Shown: piece by piece, positions 2,306 to 40,752 of the stretch
How the letters are laid out: the number at the start of each line of letters is the position of its first letter
Position numbering within the stretch: position 1 is the stretch's first letter
From: a virus
UHGV virus genome: UHGV-0397187
DNA length: 41,531 bases
Reading direction: 5' to 3' (one strand)
Notes under the pieces: generated by a model
Told to the model about the DNA's origin: nothing
Databases searched by the model: none
Seen by the model: only the letters and a program-made list of their open reading frames with translations
Position numbers and translations under genes: made by a program

Positions 2306-2494
2306 TCACGAGGACAGAAGTTTCTCGCAATTAAAATTTATCAGCTTTACTTTCTGCTCTCTGGACACGCCTGCTTCTTTTTTCCCTGAGAGCATTTTTT
2401 CGCATTCTGATTTCGTTAATTTAGATTTTGAATATCTTGTCCAGTTAGTAGGAGTGCCACCTTCTTTTTCAATAGTGGCAGTTATTTTATACAT
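2306..2494 (-). CDS. hypothetical small protein (position of Rac ydaC); start uncertain
   Basis: ORF 2306-2566 on minus strand; a later Met is chosen to limit overlap with the downstream lar-like gene. Confidence 0.35.
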   Translation of the reverse strand: MYKITATIEKEGGTPTNWTRYSKSKLTKSECEKMLSGKKEAGVSREQKVKLINFNCEKLLSS

Positions 2495-7012: not shown

Positions 7013-7407
7013 AATTATCTCCATTTTTACAAATGAACTTTGTTGATGCGGTGCCTGGTGCCTCCAGGTGACGTTAACCAGTTAACAATTAACGCCGGAT
7101 AATCCACCCATAACACTGATGCTTTTAACTGTGCCGCGTGCGCTTAGCCGCATTCACCGCATCACAAAATTCACTTTAAAAAGGGGCAGCAGGGCAGCCA
7201 CGGAGTAGAACTGATGCCGCCAAAGACTACACATAGCAATGTCGTTATTTACAACCGGAGGCGCACTCCCACCATTTAAATTTAACAGACAAGACCGACT
7301 CTTTATGAATACCGGAAATGCGCCTTCGTGTTGTGCGCCTGTCTTTTTACCACTTCAGGCTCGGTGGTATACTGGAGTTCTCACACAACCAGTAATAAGG
7401 TATTCCG

Positions 7408-14608: not shown

Positions 14609-14946
14609 ATTACCGAGTAAGGCGATGGACTACCTGAAGCGAAACGGGCTGACAAGCGTGGAGGATATTTTACGATGACCTGGCCTGAGGCATTCACCAC
14701 GGTAGGAATTGCAATGGCGGTGGCGCTGGTGGTGTATTCGATTTGCCGCTGGGGATAAAAACGGTTTGCGGGAAAAGGAGAGTTAAGTAGAATTGCAGCG
14801 GGTGCTTGAGGCTATCTGCCTCGGGCATGAACACCAACGGCAGATAGATAAAAGCCCCACCCGACTATAAATCGAAGTGAGGCCCCTATATGCTCGTCAC
14901 ATATAGATTGCCTCTTACGGACCGAAAGGTCAAGGAGAAGCAGGCT

Positions 14947-15102
14947 ATGAAGCAGCAAAAGGCGATGTTAGTCGCCCTGATCGTCATCTGTTTAACCGTC
15001 ATAGTGACGGCACTGGTAACGAGGAAAGACCTCTGCGAGGTACGAATCCGAACCGGCCAGACGGAGGTCGCTGTCTTCACAGCTTACGAACCTGAGGAGT
15101 AA
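14947..15102 (+). CDS. hok: Hok/Gef-family type I toxin
   Basis: MKQQKAMLVALIVICLTVIVTALVTRKDLCEVRIRTGQTEVAVFTAYEPEE: hallmark Hok sequence; aaggag RBS; in-frame upstream extension from 14890. Confidence 0.9.
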   Translation: MKQQKAMLVALIVICLTVIVTALVTRKDLCEVRIRTGQTEVAVFTAYEPEE

Positions 15103-16261: not shown

Positions 16262-16551
16262 TGGTGGATTTACGTAAAGCGGCGCGGGGGCAGATGTGCA
16301 CCGTCAGAATTCCTGGCTACTGCAATCACAATCCCGAAACTTCTGTGCTGGCGCATTACAGGCTGGCGGGGATGTGCGGAACAGCGACAAAACCACACGA
16401 TATGCAGGCAGCGATTGCCTGCAGCTCATGCCACGATTTAATCGACGGGCGGGTAAAAACCAGCGATTACACCAAAGAAGAATTACGCCTGATGCATGCA
16501 GAAGGTGTTTTTCGCACACAAGAAATCTGGAGAAAGGAAGGTTATTTATGA
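16261..16551 (+). CDS. YbcO-like (DUF1364) zinc-binding putative nuclease
   Basis: MVDLRKAARGQMCTVRIPGYCNHNPETSVLAHYRL..CGTATKPHD...IACSSCHD parallels DLP12 YbcO as recalled. Confidence 0.7.
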   Translation: MVDLRKAARGQMCTVRIPGYCNHNPETSVLAHYRLAGMCGTATKPHDMQAAIACSSCHDLIDGRVKTSDYTKEELRLMHAEGVFRTQEIWRKEGYL

Positions 16552-17102
16552 TTTACCCAACAAATACAGGCAAAAGCGGGGAACACCTTCGTCTCACCAC
16601 GCTGGAAAGTGTCTGGATTCAGGGAAAACTGCGCATGTGGGGGCGCTGGTCGTATATTGGCGGCGGTAAGACGGGAAATATGTTTAACCAGTTGCTGACC
16701 TCTAAAAAGCTAACAAAAACGGCAATTAATGAGGCGCTCCGGAGGATGAAAAAAGCAGGTCTGGACAAACCTGAACTTGAGGCTTTTTTGCGGGATATGA
16801 TCAACGGCAAGCAAAAAAGCTGGCTGGTGCATTGTACTGATGCAGAGGCGTTATGCATTGATCGGGTGATTAGTGAAGTGCTGGCAGAACACCCAGGATT
16901 GATTTGTATCCTCCGGCAAAGATATGAAGGGCGGGGGATGAGTAAGCGCAAAATGGCTGAATTGCTGAATGATGCACACCCCGAGTGGTGTTTCCGGACG
17001 TGCTGCAGTCGGGTAGATGTATGGCTAAATCTTGCTGAATATATGCTCTATCTACCGATGCGTGATGCATTCTCTTCCGGGGATCTAAAAACCGTCTGTT
17101 GA
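16548..17102 (+). CDS. putative late-gene antiterminator (Q-like)
   Basis: 184-aa ORF whose stop overlaps the -35 of a strong promoter followed by a short-transcript terminator (PR'/tR' arrangement); lysis genes follow. Confidence 0.55.
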   Translation: MIYPTNTGKSGEHLRLTTLESVWIQGKLRMWGRWSYIGGGKTGNMFNQLLTSKKLTKTAINEALRRMKKAGLDKPELEAFLRDMINGKQKSWLVHCTDAEALCIDRVISEVLAEHPGLICILRQRYEGRGMSKRKMAELLNDAHPEWCFRTCCSRVDVWLNLAEYMLYLPMRDAFSSGDLKTVC

Positions 17103-17128
17103 CTCAATCTGTTATCCGGGGCTATATT
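17099..17128 (+). promoter_or_regulatory. late promoter PR'-like (sigma70)
   Basis: -35 ttgact (17099-17104), 18-bp spacer, -10 tatatt (17123-17128). Confidence 0.6.
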
Positions 17129-17189
17129 CCTCACGCGCCAGCAAAATCTGGCGTCGGGATTGGCGTCCCGGATAGAGACCGCGACAGAT

Positions 17190-17213
17190 ACACGCCGCGA
17201 GCGTGTTTTTTAT
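17190..17213 (+). terminator. tR'-like intrinsic terminator about 65 nt downstream of PR'
   Basis: acacgc-cgcga-gcgtgt followed by tttttatt. Confidence 0.6.
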
Positions 17214-17372
17214 TGTCGTATGCACGCGCACATCTGAATTATGGTGGGCTGTGTGGGGGCGGAGAGATCCGCGCCGGTCGGTTTCCCGGTTACGCCAACC
17301 CTGCACAGTTCACCACCAGATGATTGGCGTCGTCGGTGGTGAGTTATTAAGAAACCACCAGAGGGCGTCATT

Positions 17373-17930
17373 ATGACAACTCAAATTTCTGTTGAAACTC
17401 TCTCCCCGATCACCCATAACCAGATTCCTGTTATTACCACCGAACTTTTGGCGCAGCTTTACGGCACTGAGCCGGTGCGTATTCGCCAGAATCATCATGA
17501 GAACAAAGTACGCTTCGTTGAAGGGAAACACTTTTTCAAAGTTGTTGGTAATGACCTTAAAGAATTGCGGGTCGCTTTAAACTACTCACAAAATCCAGTT
17601 TCACCCAAAGCCCGCTCCCTCATCCTCTGGACAGAACGAGGCGCAGCACGCCACGCCAAAATGCTCGAAACCGATCAGGCATGGGATGTGTTCGAAAAAC
17701 TGGAAGACTGCTATTTCAGTCAAAAGGATCCGTCAACGCCAGTTTCATGCCAGAAAAGTTACGACACGCGAGTTCTCTGTTATCAGAGAGGCGGTGTCAC
17801 TGTTTCCACAATTCAGTTACGGGATGATGATATTGTTATTTCCCTTGAGTCATGGCTGGAACTGGCGAGAGCCAATGGTTGGTTTGTTGTTCGCAGAGAT
17901 CAACTGGTGGAAAGGTTGATGCAGCTTTAA
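17373..17930 (+). CDS. ORF6N-domain (antirepressor N-terminal-like) protein, moron
   Basis: ITTELLAQLYGTEPVRIRQNHHENKVRFVEGKHFFKV fits the ORF6N/KilA-N-like pattern; own terminator downstream. Confidence 0.5.
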   Translation: MTTQISVETLSPITHNQIPVITTELLAQLYGTEPVRIRQNHHENKVRFVEGKHFFKVVGNDLKELRVALNYSQNPVSPKARSLILWTERGAARHAKMLETDQAWDVFEKLEDCYFSQKDPSTPVSCQKSYDTRVLCYQRGGVTVSTIQLRDDDIVISLESWLELARANGWFVVRRDQLVERLMQL

Positions 17931-18025
17931 AAAAGTTCTTGCATTTTTGCACATAAACTGCTTCAATCCCGGTACGCTTCGCAAAGCTGTATCGCGAGGC
18001 GAACCAAGCGCATGAACTTTACCAG

Positions 18026-18054
18026 AACCCGCCATTGAGCGGGTTTTGTTGTTT
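18026..18054 (+). terminator. intrinsic terminator after the ORF6N-like gene
   Basis: aacccgc-cattga-gcgggtt followed by ttgttgttt. Confidence 0.7.
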
Positions 18055-18163
18055 CTGGTACTGGCGAACCTGATGTTTCATTTCTGGAGCGCGATTCCTG
18101 GCGGAATACCTGGAATCGAGACATTCTGGTAAAATTGTGTTCAGTACAGGATGTGGAGGTGAG

Positions 18164-18733
18164 ATGAGAGAACTACCTAAAGTTTATTTTTTAGGAGTAG
18201 ATGATGAGCTCGTCGATTATCTTGAAAAACAAGGGGAAGAGACGATACGAGAGATTCATCTTTCTAACAAAACCAATGTTGAGAATGGATACAAACTTCT
18301 GAACATTCAGATTGTTGGAATTGGCTCATCTTTTTTATTGCTGACACAGAAAACTAATTTCGATTTTCTCACCGCCGGAATTACCACATTTACATTGCTA
18401 TGGACATGGTGCGCCATTTACTTGGTATGTACTGGTTTATCTGTGAAGGTTAGGGGCCTGATCAATGCCCCTCCTGATCATCTATATCATGAAAAATATA
18501 AGGATATGGAGCCCTCGAGCTTTAAAATATTCGCTGATGCAGGATATTTAGGACCTGATAAGTTATTGCCGCTTATACGAAGGTATCGCCTTGTTGACTT
18601 GAGTGATACAGCAAGAGAGTTACTGTTGGAAAATGAGAAAATCCGCACGAGTCTCGATAAAGCAAGGATGTATACTATCCTTGCTCCGGTAGCGGCGATG
18701 TTTATCTCGGCTGTTTTTTTATATGTTCAATGA
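18164..18733 (+). CDS. AT-rich membrane protein of unknown function (moron)
   Basis: ATG at 18164 after ggaggtgag RBS; hydrophobic segments IVGIGSSFLLL, ITTFTLLWTWCAIYLVCTGL and C-terminal MYTILAPVAAMFISAVFLYV; visibly AT-rich codon usage. Confidence 0.6.
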   Translation: MRELPKVYFLGVDDELVDYLEKQGEETIREIHLSNKTNVENGYKLLNIQIVGIGSSFLLLTQKTNFDFLTAGITTFTLLWTWCAIYLVCTGLSVKVRGLINAPPDHLYHEKYKDMEPSSFKIFADAGYLGPDKLLPLIRRYRLVDLSDTARELLLENEKIRTSLDKARMYTILAPVAAMFISAVFLYVQ

Positions 18734-18863
18734 CTGAGTCGGCAGAATCTCCAACAAAAACACGACGTGTAGCAAAGTCTGCAGTACTTTGTGTTGGAGT
18801 TGGTTTTGGTGCCACGGGTTGCTGAGGTTTATTTTCACCTTGTGGCTTGTTTTTTTCAGACAT
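18702..18863 (-). CDS. small Pro/Gln-rich protein, convergent with and overlapping the membrane-protein gene
   Basis: MSEKNKPQGENKPQQPVAPKPTPTQSTADFATRRVFVGDSADSVIEHIKKQPR; aagagga RBS 7 nt upstream of the ATG on the minus strand. Confidence 0.4.
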   Translation of the reverse strand: MSEKNKPQGENKPQQPVAPKPTPTQSTADFATRRVFVGDSADSVIEHIKKQPR

Positions 18864-18957
18864 AAAAATCCTCTTTGTTTGAATTGTTACTTTTGGCGAT
18901 TTAACGATATCAAACACGAGTATATACCGCCAGAAGCTTAATCTGGCACTCCATCTG

Positions 18958-18985
18958 GCCCCGGCATGTCCCGGGGCTTTTTCGT
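18958..18985 (+). terminator. plus-strand intrinsic terminator closing the moron block
   Basis: gccccgg-catgtc-ccggggc followed by tttttcgttgtt. Confidence 0.6.
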
Positions 18986-19080
18986 TGTTAGGCTCCGGAA
19001 ACATCCTCGACTTCTTGTTAGCAAGCCTGAGAGCCTGAATCTTACACTTAGCACCATCCGAACTCTCGGAGGTGAGGCTT

Positions 19081-19422
19081 ATGAAAATGCACAATGCCCC
19101 TCATTCCTGGCCTGACTTACTGGAACTCTTACAAAGTTGGTGGCGTGGAGATACGCCGCTGGGTGCAGTGGTTATGTCAATTATTATGGCTGGTTTGCGC
19201 ATTGCCTATTTTGGCGGTGGCGGCGGCTGGAAACGAAAAACGCTTGAGATTCTGCTTTGTGGTGCTCTGACGCTGACCTTTGCATCCGCGCTTGAGTATG
19301 TCGGATGGCCTAAATCACTTTCTGTTGCCATTGGTGGTGGGGTGGGGCTGATTGGTGTTGATGCTATTCGTGGTGCGGCAATGAGGGTCATCGGTAACAA
19401 GTTCGGTGCCCATAAGGAGTAA
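19081..19422 (+). CDS. holin (lambda S-like, dual-start MKM motif)
   Basis: ATG at 19081 after ggaggtgagg RBS; MKMHN dual-start; hydrophobic segments; directly upstream of endolysin. Confidence 0.75.
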   Translation: MKMHNAPHSWPDLLELLQSWWRGDTPLGAVVMSIIMAGLRIAYFGGGGGWKRKTLEILLCGALTLTFASALEYVGWPKSLSVAIGGGVGLIGVDAIRGAAMRVIGNKFGAHKE

Positions 19423-19425
19423 TTA

Positions 19426-19902
19426 ATGCAGACACTTAATTCCCAGCGTAAAGCTTTCCTTGATATGGTGGCATGGTCAGAAGGAACAGATAACGGACGG
19501 CAGAAAACCAGAAATCACGGTTATGATGTTATTGTCGGTGGCGAACTGTTCACTGATTACTCCGATCACCCCCGCAAACTTGTCACGCTAAATCCGAAAC
19601 TCAAATCAACAGCCGCCGGACGTTACCAGCTTCTTTCACGCTGGTGGGATGCCTACCGCAAGCAACTTGGCCTGAAAGATTTTTCTCCAGAAAGTCAGGA
19701 TGCTGTAGCGCTGCAGCAGATTAAAGAGCGTGGCGCTTTACCGATGATTGACCGCGGCGATATTCGTCAGGCAATCGACCGTTGCAGCAATATCTGGGCT
19801 TCGTTGCCGGGCGCTGGTTACGGTCAGTATGAACATAGAATCGGTGACCTGATTGCCCGATTTAAAGAAGCTGGTGGGGTGGTAAATGAAGCTGAGATAT
19901 AA
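19426..19902 (+). CDS. R: endolysin, lambda R-type lytic transglycosylase
   Basis: NSQRKAFLDMVAWSEGTDNGRQKTRNHGYDVIVGGELFTDYSDHPRKLVTLNPKLKSTAAGRYQLLSRWWDAYRKQLGLKDF matches lambda R almost residue for residue as recalled. Confidence 0.95.
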   Translation: MQTLNSQRKAFLDMVAWSEGTDNGRQKTRNHGYDVIVGGELFTDYSDHPRKLVTLNPKLKSTAAGRYQLLSRWWDAYRKQLGLKDFSPESQDAVALQQIKERGALPMIDRGDIRQAIDRCSNIWASLPGAGYGQYEHRIGDLIARFKEAGGVVNEAEI

Positions 19903-20278
19903 GCTGGTTATTGTTGCCTTCTTTGTTACCGTCATCGGTTCTTTTATCTGGTCTGCCGGGCATTACTACAGCAAATATCAGCACGAAAAGGAGCGCGCTG
20001 ATGAGGCTGTACGAAATGCTGAATCTGCAACAGCCATTACCAGTAACGTCCTGCAATCACTGCAAATCATCAATACAGTTATAGAGGCTAACCAGCATGC
20101 AAAACAGCAGAGCGCACTGGAGTCACAGAGAACCCAGGAAGATATCAAAGTGGCTGTTGCGGATGATGATTGCGCTGTTCGTGTTGTTCCTTCTGGTGCA
20201 GTTAAGCGGTTGCACGAATACGCGAACGGTATACGTGTCGGTGCCGGTCATTCCGTTACCAGCAAGTCTGACGGCTGA
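19886..20278 (+). CDS. Rz: i-spanin (Rz-like)
   Basis: Start overlaps the endolysin stop; N-terminal TM helix LVIVAFFVTVIGSFIW, then charged periplasmic domain. Confidence 0.75.
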   Translation: MKLRYKLVIVAFFVTVIGSFIWSAGHYYSKYQHEKERADEAVRNAESATAITSNVLQSLQIINTVIEANQHAKQQSALESQRTQEDIKVAVADDDCAVRVVPSGAVKRLHEYANGIRVGAGHSVTSKSDG

Positions 20279-40311: not shown

Positions 40312-40752
40312 ATGCAGAAATATATTTTCAGTGCCGATAAAAATGCGTTTTTCCCTGTGGAGCTTAAAATCGCTTATCAGGAATCCGGCGAATGGCCCGA
40401 TGATGGAATCGAAATTGACGACACTGTTGCCGCCGAATTTATGAAGGAAGCACCAGAAGGAAAATACAGAGGTGTCATCGACGGAATGCCTGCATGGATT
40501 GATATTCCACCGCCAACTCATGAGGAACAAATTGCCGCAGCCGAACTGGAAAAGCAGCAATTGATTAATCAGGTCAACGAATACATAAACAGTAAGCAAT
40601 GGCCTGGTAAAGCGGCGATTGGTCGCCTGAAAGGTGAGGAACTGGCGCAATATAATTTGTGGCTGGATTATCTGGACGCACTGGAGCTGGTCGATACTTC
40701 CGGTGCGCCAGATATTGAATGGCCTACGCCTCCGGTAACTCAGGCCAGCTAA
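40312..40752 (+). CDS. tfa: tail fibre assembly protein (Tfa)
   Basis: 146-aa ORF right after the fibre; C-terminal VDTSGAPDIEWP motif shared with Tfa'. Confidence 0.8.
   Translation: MQKYIFSADKNAFFPVELKIAYQESGEWPDDGIEIDDTVAAEFMKEAPEGKYRGVIDGMPAWIDIPPPTHEEQIAAAELEKQQLINQVNEYINSKQWPGKAAIGRLKGEELAQYNLWLDYLDALELVDTSGAPDIEWPTPPVTQAS

What the first reader, a model, noticed from the sequence alone, without database searches (positions are those of the whole stretch)
17099..17213. PR'-like promoter with tR'-like terminator directly after the Q-like gene
A near-consensus sigma70 promoter (TTGACT, 18 bp, TATATT) overlaps the Q stop codon and is followed about 65 nt later by an intrinsic terminator. 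This is the layout of a short constitutive late leader transcript released by Q antitermination, and it supports the Q assignment.
Basis: partly seen in the sequence, partly recalled or inferred. Interest (0 to 1): 0.4.

Follow-up and report, generated by a model that had tools for sequence, protein, structure and literature searches.

The report
IsrK small-RNA unit, not Q's late promoter
The promoter and terminator right after the Q-like gene are real, but they make the known phage small RNA IsrK, which heads an antisense-RNA/antirepressor cassette inserted between Q and the late promoter that normally follows this kind of Q, now about 830 bases downstream.

Summary
TTGACT (17099-17104, overlapping the Q stop TGA 17100-17102), an 18-nt spacer, TATATT (17123-17128) and a terminator hairpin (17190-17206 plus T-run) are all present.

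The interval is a full-length Rfam IsrK (17135-17211, 78 bits). It overlaps the "c4-a1b1" motif and is followed by a C4 antisense RNA (17237-17320) and an ORF6N antirepressor gene (17373-17930). This is the Gifsy-1 antQ-isrK-orf45-anrP layout.

The same promoter and leader follow an unrelated Q family (PF06323) in Gifsy-1. In Stx phages they lie 2.5 kb upstream of Q, and they also occur in phages without a lambdoid Q. The unit therefore does not track the Q type.

The unit that does track DUF1133-type Q genes lies at 17939-18056, after ant. It has a -35, an extended -10, a conserved -10-like TAnGCT at the start site and a strong terminator. It abuts Q in 61 cassette-less close relatives. A profile built only from distant homologues hits the window there alone (E 1e-12).

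Three-way compensatory covariation (b1/b'/b2) supports an IsrK-C4-ant RNA switch. This is a new member of a known kind, of modest interest.

The parts
16548..17102 (+). Q-like gene (184 aa, DUF1133). A distant relative of the phage 21 Q antiterminator.
   Evidence: PF06576 scores 354 bits and PF06530 scores 27.5 bits against a cut-off of 26. A 30-sequence family profile hits only Q21 structures 6P18/6JNX in the PDB, E 7.5e-9. hhalign against the 933W-type Q gives E 1.9e-4 at 48% probability.
17099..17128 (+). P-isrK promoter: -35 TTGACT (17099-17104), 18-nt spacer, -10 TATATT (17123-17128). The predicted start is 17135.
   Evidence: Found by the scan. The same hexamers and spacing occur in Gifsy-1 (TTGACA...TATATT), VT2-Sakai (TTGACG...TATATT) and other copies. 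The orthologous promoter is active in Salmonella (PMC4825925).
17135..17211 (+). IsrK-family small RNA. Hairpin 1 is 17135-17154, with the invariant loop GCAAAAUC. Hairpin 2 is 17155-17170 and presents b1 (UUGGCGU, 17160-17166). The terminator hairpin is 17190-17206 plus the T-run.
   Evidence: Rfam RF01394 at 78 bits, model positions 1-77 of 77. Fold. Covariation in hairpin 1. RF03163 c4-a1b1 covers 17122-17174 at 52.9 bits.
17237..17320 (+). C4-type antisense RNA (the counterpart of Gifsy-1 STnc1160/'orf45'). The a' loop GGUUUC is at 17280-17285 and b' ACGCCAA is at 17292-17298.
   Evidence: Rfam RF01695 at 66.7 bits against a gathering score of 45. b' is perfectly complementary to b1 and b2 in every variant.
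17324..17365 (+). C4 target sites in the ant leader. b2 UUGGCGU is at 17324-17330, in the loop of the hairpin CACCACC/GGUGGUG. a2 GAAACC is at 17351-17356, directly 5' of the Shine-Dalgarno AGAGGG (17360-17365).
   Evidence: Sequence reading and fold. Five b types and five a'/a2 types change in a compensatory way.
17373..17930 (+). Antirepressor-like gene, the AnrP/Ant counterpart.
   Evidence: PF10543 ORF6N at 72.9 bits. Gifsy-1 AnrP has the same domain. An antirepressor-type gene follows the cassette in four of the five further phage contexts fetched, in VT2-Sakai and in Gifsy-1; in PA2 the following gene is an unnamed hypothetical protein.
17939..18056 (+). Candidate true late promoter unit of this Q ('unit B'). 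It has a -35-like TTGCAT (17939-17944) and an extended -10 TGcTTCAAT (17959-17967). A conserved -10-like TACGCT (17973-17978) lies at about -1 to +5 and is the candidate sigma-dependent pause element. GCAAAGCTG (17981-17989) follows. The strong terminator is at 18023-18048 plus the T-run.
   Evidence: It is homologous to the sequence that abuts Q in the cassette-less relatives L002 and L003 and in 61 related loci. A conserved layout follows Q in homologues of 33-65% identity. A profile built from distant loci only gives a single strong window hit at 17950-18048, E 1e-12. TAnGCT is the most conserved block. The promoters are near-consensus in L007 and L008. The terminator folds at -16.1 kcal/mol.
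19072..20278 (+). Lysis genes (holin, lysozyme, Rz) downstream of unit B. These are the presumed late operon.
   Evidence: PF05106 holin at 95.9 bits. ORFs. Relatives show the same order Q, unit B, (tRNAs or other inserted genes), lysis genes.

Best explanation
**What it is.** The promoter and terminator at 17099-17213 are P-isrK and the IsrK small-RNA gene. They form the 5' module of a self-contained cassette: promoter, IsrK, leaky terminator, C4-type antisense RNA, antirepressor gene. Cassettes of this kind are known from P1/P7 immI, P4 CI and Gifsy-1 isrK-orf45-anrP.

**How it works (inferred from sequence, covariation and the Gifsy-1 experiments).**
1. Most transcripts from P-isrK stop at the weak terminator and give the 77-nt IsrK.
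2. Some transcripts read through into C4 and ant.
3. The C4 segment pairs through b' with b2 and through a' with a2, next to the ant ribosome-binding site. This keeps ant untranslated.
4. IsrK carries b1, an exact copy of b2, in a hairpin loop. It competes for b', so excess IsrK frees the ant leader.
5. The antirepressor then inactivates the prophage repressor, which leads to early transcription and Q synthesis.

**What it is not.** This unit is not where the neighbouring Q loads. The cassette sits between the DUF1133-type Q gene and that Q family's own late promoter, pause element and terminator, which are at 17939-18056. By analogy with Gifsy-1, read-through transcripts from P-isrK (about 920 nt) should end at that downstream terminator.
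For: **Identity**
- Rfam IsrK, c4-a1b1 and C4 all score above their gathering thresholds, and an ORF6N gene follows.
- Gifsy-1 has the same order of parts.

**Mechanism**
- Five b1/b'/b2 specificity types each give 7 perfect Watson-Crick pairs in both b1:b' and b2:b'.
- Five a'/a2 types give 6-9 pairs, next to or over the ant Shine-Dalgarno sequence.
- The published compensatory mutants G28A/C162U and G31A/C159U are exactly b1:b' pairs, at window 17162/17296 and 17165/17293 (PMC4825925 Table 1D).
- IsrK supplied in trans raised anrP translation about 140-fold.

**Independence from Q**
- The cassette is 99% identical in the VT2-Sakai nin region, 2.5 kb upstream of a PF06530 Q.
- It follows a PF06323 Q in Gifsy-1.
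- It occurs in 281 phage records, including phiV10 and APSE-2.

**The cognate unit lies elsewhere**
- Of the 28 loci with isrK 33-34 nt after Q, 25 have unit B 827-883 nt downstream.
- 61 loci without the cassette have unit B at -4 to +11 from the Q stop.
- A conserved layout follows Q homologues of 33-65% identity.
- A profile from distant loci gives a single strong hit at 17950-18048 and none at 17099-17213.

**Independent replicate.** In Gifsy-1 the isrJ unit follows anrP, while in cassette-less phages it abuts PF06323 Q genes.
Against: - No transcript, pause or Q-dependence data exist for this window. Every functional step is transferred from Gifsy-1 or inferred.
- In this window unit B has weak core hexamers (TTGCAT / TTCAAT) and relies on a TGn extended -10 motif, so the promoter scan did not call it.
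- The DNA-binding site for DUF1133 Q is unknown, so its absence from P-isrK is shown only indirectly, by lack of co-variation and lack of profile similarity.
- The cassette sits exactly at the Q/late-promoter junction in two unrelated Q families. This could reflect functional coupling with Q rather than a neutral insertion.
- Overexpressed Gifsy-1 AntQ interferes with termination globally (PMC4825925), so some effect of Q on isrK read-through is not excluded.
- The a1 loop does not covary with a', so part of the classical C4 a1/b1 model is not confirmed here.
Confidence: 0.75

Rival explanations
1. One reading: 17099-17213 is the PR'/tR' pair of this prophage. Q loads on RNA polymerase paused just after this promoter and carries it through the terminator into ant and the late genes.
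For: The unit lies directly after Q, with the -35 over the stop codon, exactly where the cognate promoter sits in cassette-less relatives. It is a near-consensus promoter followed by a terminator. A -10-like CAAAAT lies at +8 to +13 in an invariant loop. PMC7547250 calls IsrK antitermination-regulated. IsrK supplied in trans raised the long Gifsy-1 transcript about 8-fold.
Against: The same promoter and leader serve next to a PF06323 Q, next to a DUF1133 Q, and far from a PF06530 Q. The Q families are reported to share no sequence similarity and each loads at its own site (10.1101/651190). The unit has no similarity to the unit conserved after DUF1133 Q genes. It has no TAnnnT at +1 to +7. Its terminator is weak (-7.6 kcal/mol) and leaky even without Q. 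C4 and ant follow it, not late genes.
Confidence: 0.08
2. Dual use: both units respond to Q. The cassette has adopted the Q-proximal slot so that Q, once made, also boosts read-through into C4 and ant. This would be a positive feedback on induction, while unit B remains the main late promoter.
For: The cassette has been placed at the Q/late-promoter junction repeatedly: 28 DUF1133 loci and Gifsy-1. The hairpin-1 loop is invariant without a pairing partner. AntQ overexpression relaxes termination broadly (PMC4825925 abstract).
Against: The cassette works without an adjacent Q in most phages that carry it. No shared sequence between P-isrK and unit B could serve as a common Q binding site.
Confidence: 0.12
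3. A chance co-occurrence of promoter-like and terminator-like motifs with no function.
For: Consensus promoter-like sites are not enriched in the window, and about 0.6 promoter-plus-terminator pairs are expected by chance.
Against: There is a full-length Rfam match at E 3.5e-15. The unit is conserved in 281 phage records and shows covariation. The orthologue has been characterised experimentally (PMC4825925).
Confidence: 0.01

Closest known systems
Gifsy-1 isrK locus of Salmonella (antQ - isrK - orf45/STnc1160 - anrP - isrJ; Hershko-Shalev et al. 2016, PMC4825925)
   Same: The order of parts and the promoter are the same (TTGACx, 18 nt, TATATT). The IsrK is near-identical, with the same b1/b'/b2 sequence (UUGGCGU), and a C4-like RNA and an ORF6N antirepressor follow. 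The cassette again sits between a Q gene and a second short promoter-terminator unit.
   Different: The neighbouring Q is a different family: DUF1133/Q21-like here, PF06323/Q82-like in Gifsy-1. The downstream unit is unit B here and isrJ there. The a'/a2 pair differs (GGUUUC/GAAACC versus UCGGUGAU/AUCACCGG). The small ORF over C4 ends 30 nt before ant here instead of overlapping its start codon.
P1/P7 immI operon (c4 antisense RNA - icd - ant; Citron and Schuster 1990, cited through PMC8198154) and the P4 CI RNA / seqA / seqC system
   Same: An antisense RNA is made from the same transcript as its targets. Two short complementary segments lie upstream (a1b1) and downstream (a2b2) of the RNA. 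The downstream targets sit at the translation start region of an antirepressor operon. Specificity types differ by a few compensatory bases.
   Different: Here the upstream target copy is released as a separate terminated small RNA, IsrK. Only b1, not a1, shows convincing complementarity. No icd-like gene is present. RNase P processing and Rho-dependent polarity were not tested.
Lambda PR' - 6S RNA - tR', and the 933W PR' - StxS short RNA (PMC7547250)
   Same: A constitutive promoter lies just after Q, produces a short terminated RNA, and its read-through is regulated.
   Different: Q loading requires a Q-family-specific binding site and a -10-like pause element near +1, followed by late genes. 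The isrK unit lacks these, while unit B (17939-18056) has that geometry.
Phage 21 Q (PDB 6P18, 6JNX; PF06530)
   Same: The DUF1133 profile matches Q21 over residues 57-155 at E 7.5e-9, and shares the N-terminal W..G.L..WG.W motif.
   Different: The single-sequence match is marginal (E 0.02). The Pfam score is barely above the cut-off. No binding site, pause site or activity has been determined for any DUF1133 protein.

Membership tests
IsrK small RNA (Rfam RF01394) | Covariance-model score at or above the gathering threshold, over the full length | tested here: met
   78 bits against 50, model positions 1-77 of 77, window 17135-17211.
IsrK small RNA (Rfam RF01394) | Two 5' hairpins plus an intrinsic terminator, kept by compensatory changes | tested here: met
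   Fold. In 11 variants, 4 pairs of hairpin 1 change on both sides and stay paired. Terminator sequences differ but remain hairpins followed by a T-run.
IsrK small RNA (Rfam RF01394) | Own promoter; lies upstream of a C4-like RNA and an antirepressor gene | tested here: met
IsrK small RNA (Rfam RF01394) | Accumulates as a roughly 77-nt RNA and activates antirepressor translation in trans | not testable with these tools
   Shown only for the Gifsy-1 orthologue (PMC4825925).
C4-type antisense RNA / antirepressor immunity module (P1 immI type; Rfam RF01695 and RF03163) | C4 covariance-model match, and an a1b1 motif match upstream of it | tested here: met
   RF01695 at 66.7 bits against 45. RF03163 at 52.9 bits against 46.7.
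C4-type antisense RNA / antirepressor immunity module (P1 immI type; Rfam RF01695 and RF03163) | Segments a' and b' are complementary to a2 and b2 at the start of the antirepressor message, with covariation | tested here: met
   b':b2 gives 7 perfect pairs in all 15 variants (5 types). a':a2 gives 6-9 pairs (5 types) next to or over the Shine-Dalgarno sequence.
C4-type antisense RNA / antirepressor immunity module (P1 immI type; Rfam RF01695 and RF03163) | The upstream copies a1 and b1 are also complementary to a' and b' | tested here: inconclusive
   b1:b' gives 7 perfect pairs and covaries. a1:a' gives only 4-5 pairs including G-U, and a1 is invariant while a' varies.
C4-type antisense RNA / antirepressor immunity module (P1 immI type; Rfam RF01695 and RF03163) | C4 is processed out of the precursor transcript, and repression acts through translation block and polarity | not testable with these tools
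   A processed STnc1160 is reported for Gifsy-1 only.
Lambdoid Q-dependent late cassette (PR' - pause element - tR'), applied to 17099-17213 | A sigma70 promoter immediately downstream of the Q gene, followed by an intrinsic terminator | tested here: met
Lambdoid Q-dependent late cassette (PR' - pause element - tR'), applied to 17099-17213 | A -10-like sigma-dependent pause element in the initial transcribed region | tested here: inconclusive
   No TAnnnT at +1 to +7 (the sequence is GCGCCAG). The only candidate is CAAAAT at +8 to +13 in the hairpin-1 loop. Pausing itself cannot be tested here.
Lambdoid Q-dependent late cassette (PR' - pause element - tR'), applied to 17099-17213 | The promoter-proximal sequence is specific to, and travels with, the cognate Q family | tested here: not met
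   The same sequence lies next to DUF1133 and PF06323 Q genes, and away from a PF06530 Q. The profile of the DUF1133-linked unit does not match it.
Lambdoid Q-dependent late cassette (PR' - pause element - tR'), applied to 17099-17213 | The terminator is followed by the late (lysis and structural) genes | tested here: not met
   It is followed by C4, ant and then a second promoter-terminator unit. The holin gene starts only at 19072.
Lambdoid Q-dependent late cassette (PR' - pause element - tR'), applied to 17099-17213 | Q-dependent read-through | not testable with these tools
   Needs reporter fusions or in vitro transcription.
Lambdoid Q-dependent late cassette, applied to unit B (17939-18056) | Co-occurs with the Q family, with a promoter, a -10-like element near +1, a terminator and then late genes | tested here: met
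   Lysis genes lie downstream. Function itself was not tested.
Q21-type antiterminator (PF06530), applied to ORF 16548-17102 | Sequence homology to Q21/Q933W | tested here: met
   PF06530 at 27.5 bits against a cut-off of 26, and 40 bits for relative L005. The family profile hits Q21 PDB chains at E 7.5e-9. The hhalign result is weaker, at 48% probability.

The most novel reading that the evidence does not exclude
The IsrK/C4/antirepressor cassette may be repeatedly and specifically placed between a Q gene and that Q's own late promoter. This is seen for two unrelated Q families: DUF1133 here, and PF06323 in Gifsy-1, where IsrJ would then be the late-promoter short RNA. The placement would wire induction and late transcription together. 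Early transcripts that run through Q would override the weak isrK terminator and boost ant. The invariant hairpin-1 loop (GCAAAAUC, containing the -10-like CAAAAT at +8 to +13) would act as a sigma70-dependent pause or factor-loading signal rather than as a C4 target.
Probability: 0.12. Interest if true: 0.55.

Novelty: new member of a known kind. Interest (0 to 1): 0.3.

Why it matters
For annotation, a promoter and terminator found right after a Q gene should not automatically be called PR'/tR'. Here, and in 127 of 5426 complete E. coli genomes, that slot holds an IsrK/C4/antirepressor switch that RefSeq leaves unannotated.

The comparison also yields three testable by-products:
- A conserved candidate late promoter, pause element and terminator for the uncharacterised DUF1133 branch of Q21-like antiterminators.
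- The suggestion that the Salmonella small RNA IsrJ is the late-promoter short transcript of a Q82-type Q.
- A set of five natural specificity types (b1/b'/b2) that could explain hetero-immunity between co-resident prophages carrying such cassettes.

Tried and rejected
- **tRNA scan of the window:** none found, so the structured region after the terminator is not a tRNA.
- **Rfam on 17850-19100 at E up to 10:** no family matches unit B, only sub-threshold noise. There is no isrJ homologue in the window.
- **ORF 17099-17323 (74 aa) spanning the finding:** no Pfam hit, so it was treated as spurious.
- **Single-sequence search of Q against the PDB:** only marginal (E 0.02). It was replaced by a 30-sequence profile search.
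- **Direct comparison of P-isrK or unit B with the VT2-Sakai/933W late promoter region:** no recognisable similarity, so this was not pursued.
- **Search for a Q21-like direct repeat of 8-bp subsites:**
  - TTGCAttt/TTGCAcat occurs in the window's unit B, but it is not conserved in relatives.
  - CTGTTGAC/CTGTTATC occurs in P-isrK, but its first copy lies outside the stretch shared with VT2-Sakai.
  - Both were judged uninformative (sequence reading).
- **Taking TAnGCT as the promoter -10 itself:** rejected, because no -35 lies at 16-18 nt upstream in any group, whereas near-consensus promoters lie 5-7 nt upstream in the Providencia and Edwardsiella loci.
- **blastn classification of distant loci:** this failed below about 70% Q identity, so it was replaced by motif reading and an nhmmer profile.
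- **Structure prediction of Q:** not run, because the profile-to-PDB result answered the question.

Full report
**1. The observation**

The sequence shows TTGACT at 17099-17104, an 18-nt spacer and TATATT at 17123-17128. The upstream ORF, in the correct frame, is 16548-17102, and its TGA stop (17100-17102) lies inside the -35 hexamer. A hairpin ACACGC/GCGTGT at 17190-17206 is followed by a T-run.

On consensus grounds alone this is not remarkable. Promoter-like sites are no more frequent than in shuffled sequence. In my own scan of the whole window, two promoter-plus-terminator pairs were found, against a mean of 0.57 in shuffles. Homology is what makes the unit real, as section 2 shows.

**2. 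What the interval is**

Rfam places a full-length IsrK (RF01394, 78 bits against a gathering score of 50) at 17135-17211. That is exactly from 7 nt after the -10 to the end of the T-run. Three other matches fit around it:
- The 'c4-a1b1' motif (RF03163) overlaps it at 17122-17174.
- A C4 antisense RNA (RF01695, 66.7 bits) follows at 17237-17320.
- The next gene (17373-17930) has an ORF6N antirepressor-type domain.

This is the order described for Salmonella prophage Gifsy-1: antQ, isrK, orf45 (the stable RNA STnc1160), anrP, isrJ (PMC4825925). I confirmed that order on the Gifsy-1 record.

In Gifsy-1 the isrK promoter is active, and the 77-nt RNA and a read-through mRNA of about 910 nt are both seen. 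IsrK supplied in trans raises anrP translation about 140-fold. Those authors also noted the resemblance to P4 seqA/CI.

**3. How the cassette works**

I aligned 15 distinct versions of the cassette.

- *b sites.* The loop of IsrK hairpin 2 (b1; window 17160-17166, UUGGCGU) is identical to a site downstream of C4 (b2; 17324-17330). Both are perfectly complementary (7 Watson-Crick pairs) to a C4 segment (b'; 17292-17298). Five sequence types exist: UUGGCGU, UUAGGAA, UUAGCAC, UUGGAAC and UUGGUCU. In each type all three sites have changed together.
- *a sites.* The C4 a' loop (17280-17285) pairs with a2 (17351-17356), next to the ant Shine-Dalgarno sequence. This pair also has five co-varying types.
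- *Published mutants.* The Gifsy-1 compensatory mutants G28A/C162U and G31A/C159U are b1:b' pairs.
- *Structure.* IsrK hairpin 1 is kept by both-sided changes at four pairs.

From this I infer the following. C4 masks the ant translation start through b2 and a2. IsrK, the abundant terminated product, carries a decoy copy of b2 and titrates C4, which switches ant on. This is the P1/P7 immI logic with the upstream target released as a separate RNA.

One part of the classical model is not confirmed. The a1 loop GCAAAAUC is invariant and pairs only weakly with a'.

**4. Is it nevertheless the late promoter for the neighbouring Q?**

Four lines of evidence say no.

(a) *The cassette is independent of Q.*
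- Window 17112-17400 is 99% identical to the nin region of VT2-Sakai. There it lies between a ninE-like gene and ant/roi, 2.5 kb upstream of a PF06530 Q whose own late region follows it.
- In Gifsy-1 the cassette follows a PF06323 (Q82-family) Q.
- It occurs in 281 phage records, including phiV10 and APSE-2, where no Q gene is annotated in the stretches examined. An antirepressor-type gene follows it in most of the records examined.
- The -35, the spacing and the -10 travel with the cassette.
- The Q families share no sequence similarity, and each loads at its own binding and pause elements (10.1101/651190). One leader cannot be the cognate site for all of them.

(b) *The Q here is a DUF1133 protein.*
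- PF06576 scores 354 bits, with a marginal PF06530 match.
- A 30-member family profile hits only Q21 structures in the PDB (E 7.5e-9).
- It is therefore a plausible distant Q21-type antiterminator.

(c) *A different unit travels with DUF1133 Q genes.* I collected 124 loci encoding relatives and classified what follows Q.
- 61 close relatives lack isrK. In them a different sequence ('unit B') starts -4 to +11 from the Q stop.
- 28 loci, including the window, have isrK at +33/34. In 25 of these, unit B follows ant at +827 to +883.
- In the window, unit B is 17939-18056, directly after the ant stop.
- In Q homologues of only 33-65% identity (Klebsiella, Enterobacter, Serratia, Xenorhabdus, Proteus, Providencia, Erwinia/Pantoea, Edwardsiella), the post-Q region has the same plan:
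  - a -35, often over the stop codon;
  - a -10 or TGn-extended -10;
  - 5-7 nt later, a nearly invariant TAnGCT;
  - GCRAAGCTG;
  - a strong AACCCGCC...GCGGGTTTT terminator.
- The promoters are near-consensus in the Providencia and Edwardsiella phages (TTGACT-16-TATAGT and TTGACA-16-TAGTAT).
- An nhmmer profile built only from loci with Q below 70% identity gives one strong hit in the whole window, at 17950-18048 (E 1e-12). It gives none at the isrK unit.
- The TAnGCT block lies at about -1 to +5. That is the geometry of a sigma-dependent pause element in lambda PR' (from my knowledge of lambda; not tested here).
- Lysis genes follow unit B in the window and in relatives.

(d) *An independent replicate.* The Gifsy-1 isrJ promoter-RNA-terminator unit follows anrP. 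In cassette-less Klebsiella and Enterobacter phages it abuts PF06323 Q genes. In both Q families, therefore, the cassette is wedged between Q and the Q-linked short transcription unit.

**5. What remains open**

- No expression data exist for this window.
- Unit B's core hexamers are weak here.
- The DUF1133 binding site is unknown.
- One paper refers to IsrK as antitermination-regulated, and AntQ overexpression relaxes termination generally.
- The recurrent placement at the Q/late-promoter junction and the unexplained invariance of the hairpin-1 loop leave room for functional coupling with Q. I give about 0.1-0.2 to any Q effect on this unit.

**6. Verdict**

It is wrong about the system: it is IsrK of a C4/antirepressor cassette, a new member of a known kind.

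The likely PR'/tR' equivalent for this Q is at 17939-18056. Interest is modest (0.3). It comes mainly from three things: the annotation lesson, the consensus late-promoter unit for DUF1133 Qs, and the reading of IsrJ as a late-promoter RNA, for which I found no statement in the held library.

Noticed in passing
L065 326-402 and 3588-3664; L013 290-367 and 3586-3662: Some related prophages carry two IsrK cassettes, one about 2.7 kb upstream of Q and one directly after Q. In L013 the two copies have different b1 loops (UUUGCAC versus UUGGUCU), which suggests two non-cross-reacting switches in one prophage.
   Followed up: partly
window 17141-17148 (IsrK hairpin-1 loop): The loop GCAAAAUC is invariant in every variant examined, although its supposed partner, the C4 a' loop, varies and pairs with a2 instead. 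It contains CAAAAT, which keeps the two key -10 bases, at +8 to +13. The constraint is unexplained.
   Followed up: partly
L010 (Gifsy-1) 33520-33395, minus strand: The isrJ promoter, RNA and terminator abut PF06323 Q genes in cassette-less Klebsiella and Enterobacter phages. IsrJ therefore looks like the late-promoter short RNA of a Q82-type Q. No paper in the held library says so.
   Followed up: partly
window 2310-2488 (+), 7184-7235 (-), 14800-14949 (+): There are Rfam matches to RalA (the RalR antitoxin RNA), DicF and sok, with a hok-like ORF at 14890-15102. The window is a Rac/Qin-like lambdoid prophage that carries several regulatory RNAs.
   Followed up: no
window 18137-18733 (+), 18702-19094 (-), 18957-18978 (+): An ORF with no Pfam match lies between unit B and the holin gene, and relatives have it too. 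A minus-strand ORF and a strong terminator-like hairpin (-16.4 kcal/mol) lie just upstream of the holin gene.
   Followed up: no
window 40627-40656 (+): This is the only other + strand promoter-like site scoring 10/12. It also has a terminator-like hairpin about 100 nt downstream.
   Followed up: no
L009 (PP818812 'Actinobacillus phage vB_Apl-pPE4'); L017 ('Candidatus Nanosynbacter' MAG contig): Both records carry Q genes 91-99% identical to the E. coli-type Q here, and L009 has the whole isrK layout. Their host labels look doubtful and may reflect contamination or misassignment.
   Followed up: no
L011, L012 (E. coli ECMA0423, Shigella flexneri SFBU1023): These loci have Q followed by the isrK cassette, but no unit B within 3 kb downstream, unlike the other 25 loci of this class. 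The cause could be a deletion or a different late region.
   Followed up: no
window 16993-17102 (3' end of Q): The last 35 or so codons of this 184-aa Q variant differ from those of the 176/177-aa variant found in cassette-less relatives. They resemble the C-terminus of the Klebsiella-type homologues instead. A recombination junction inside Q therefore accompanies the cassette.
   Followed up: partly
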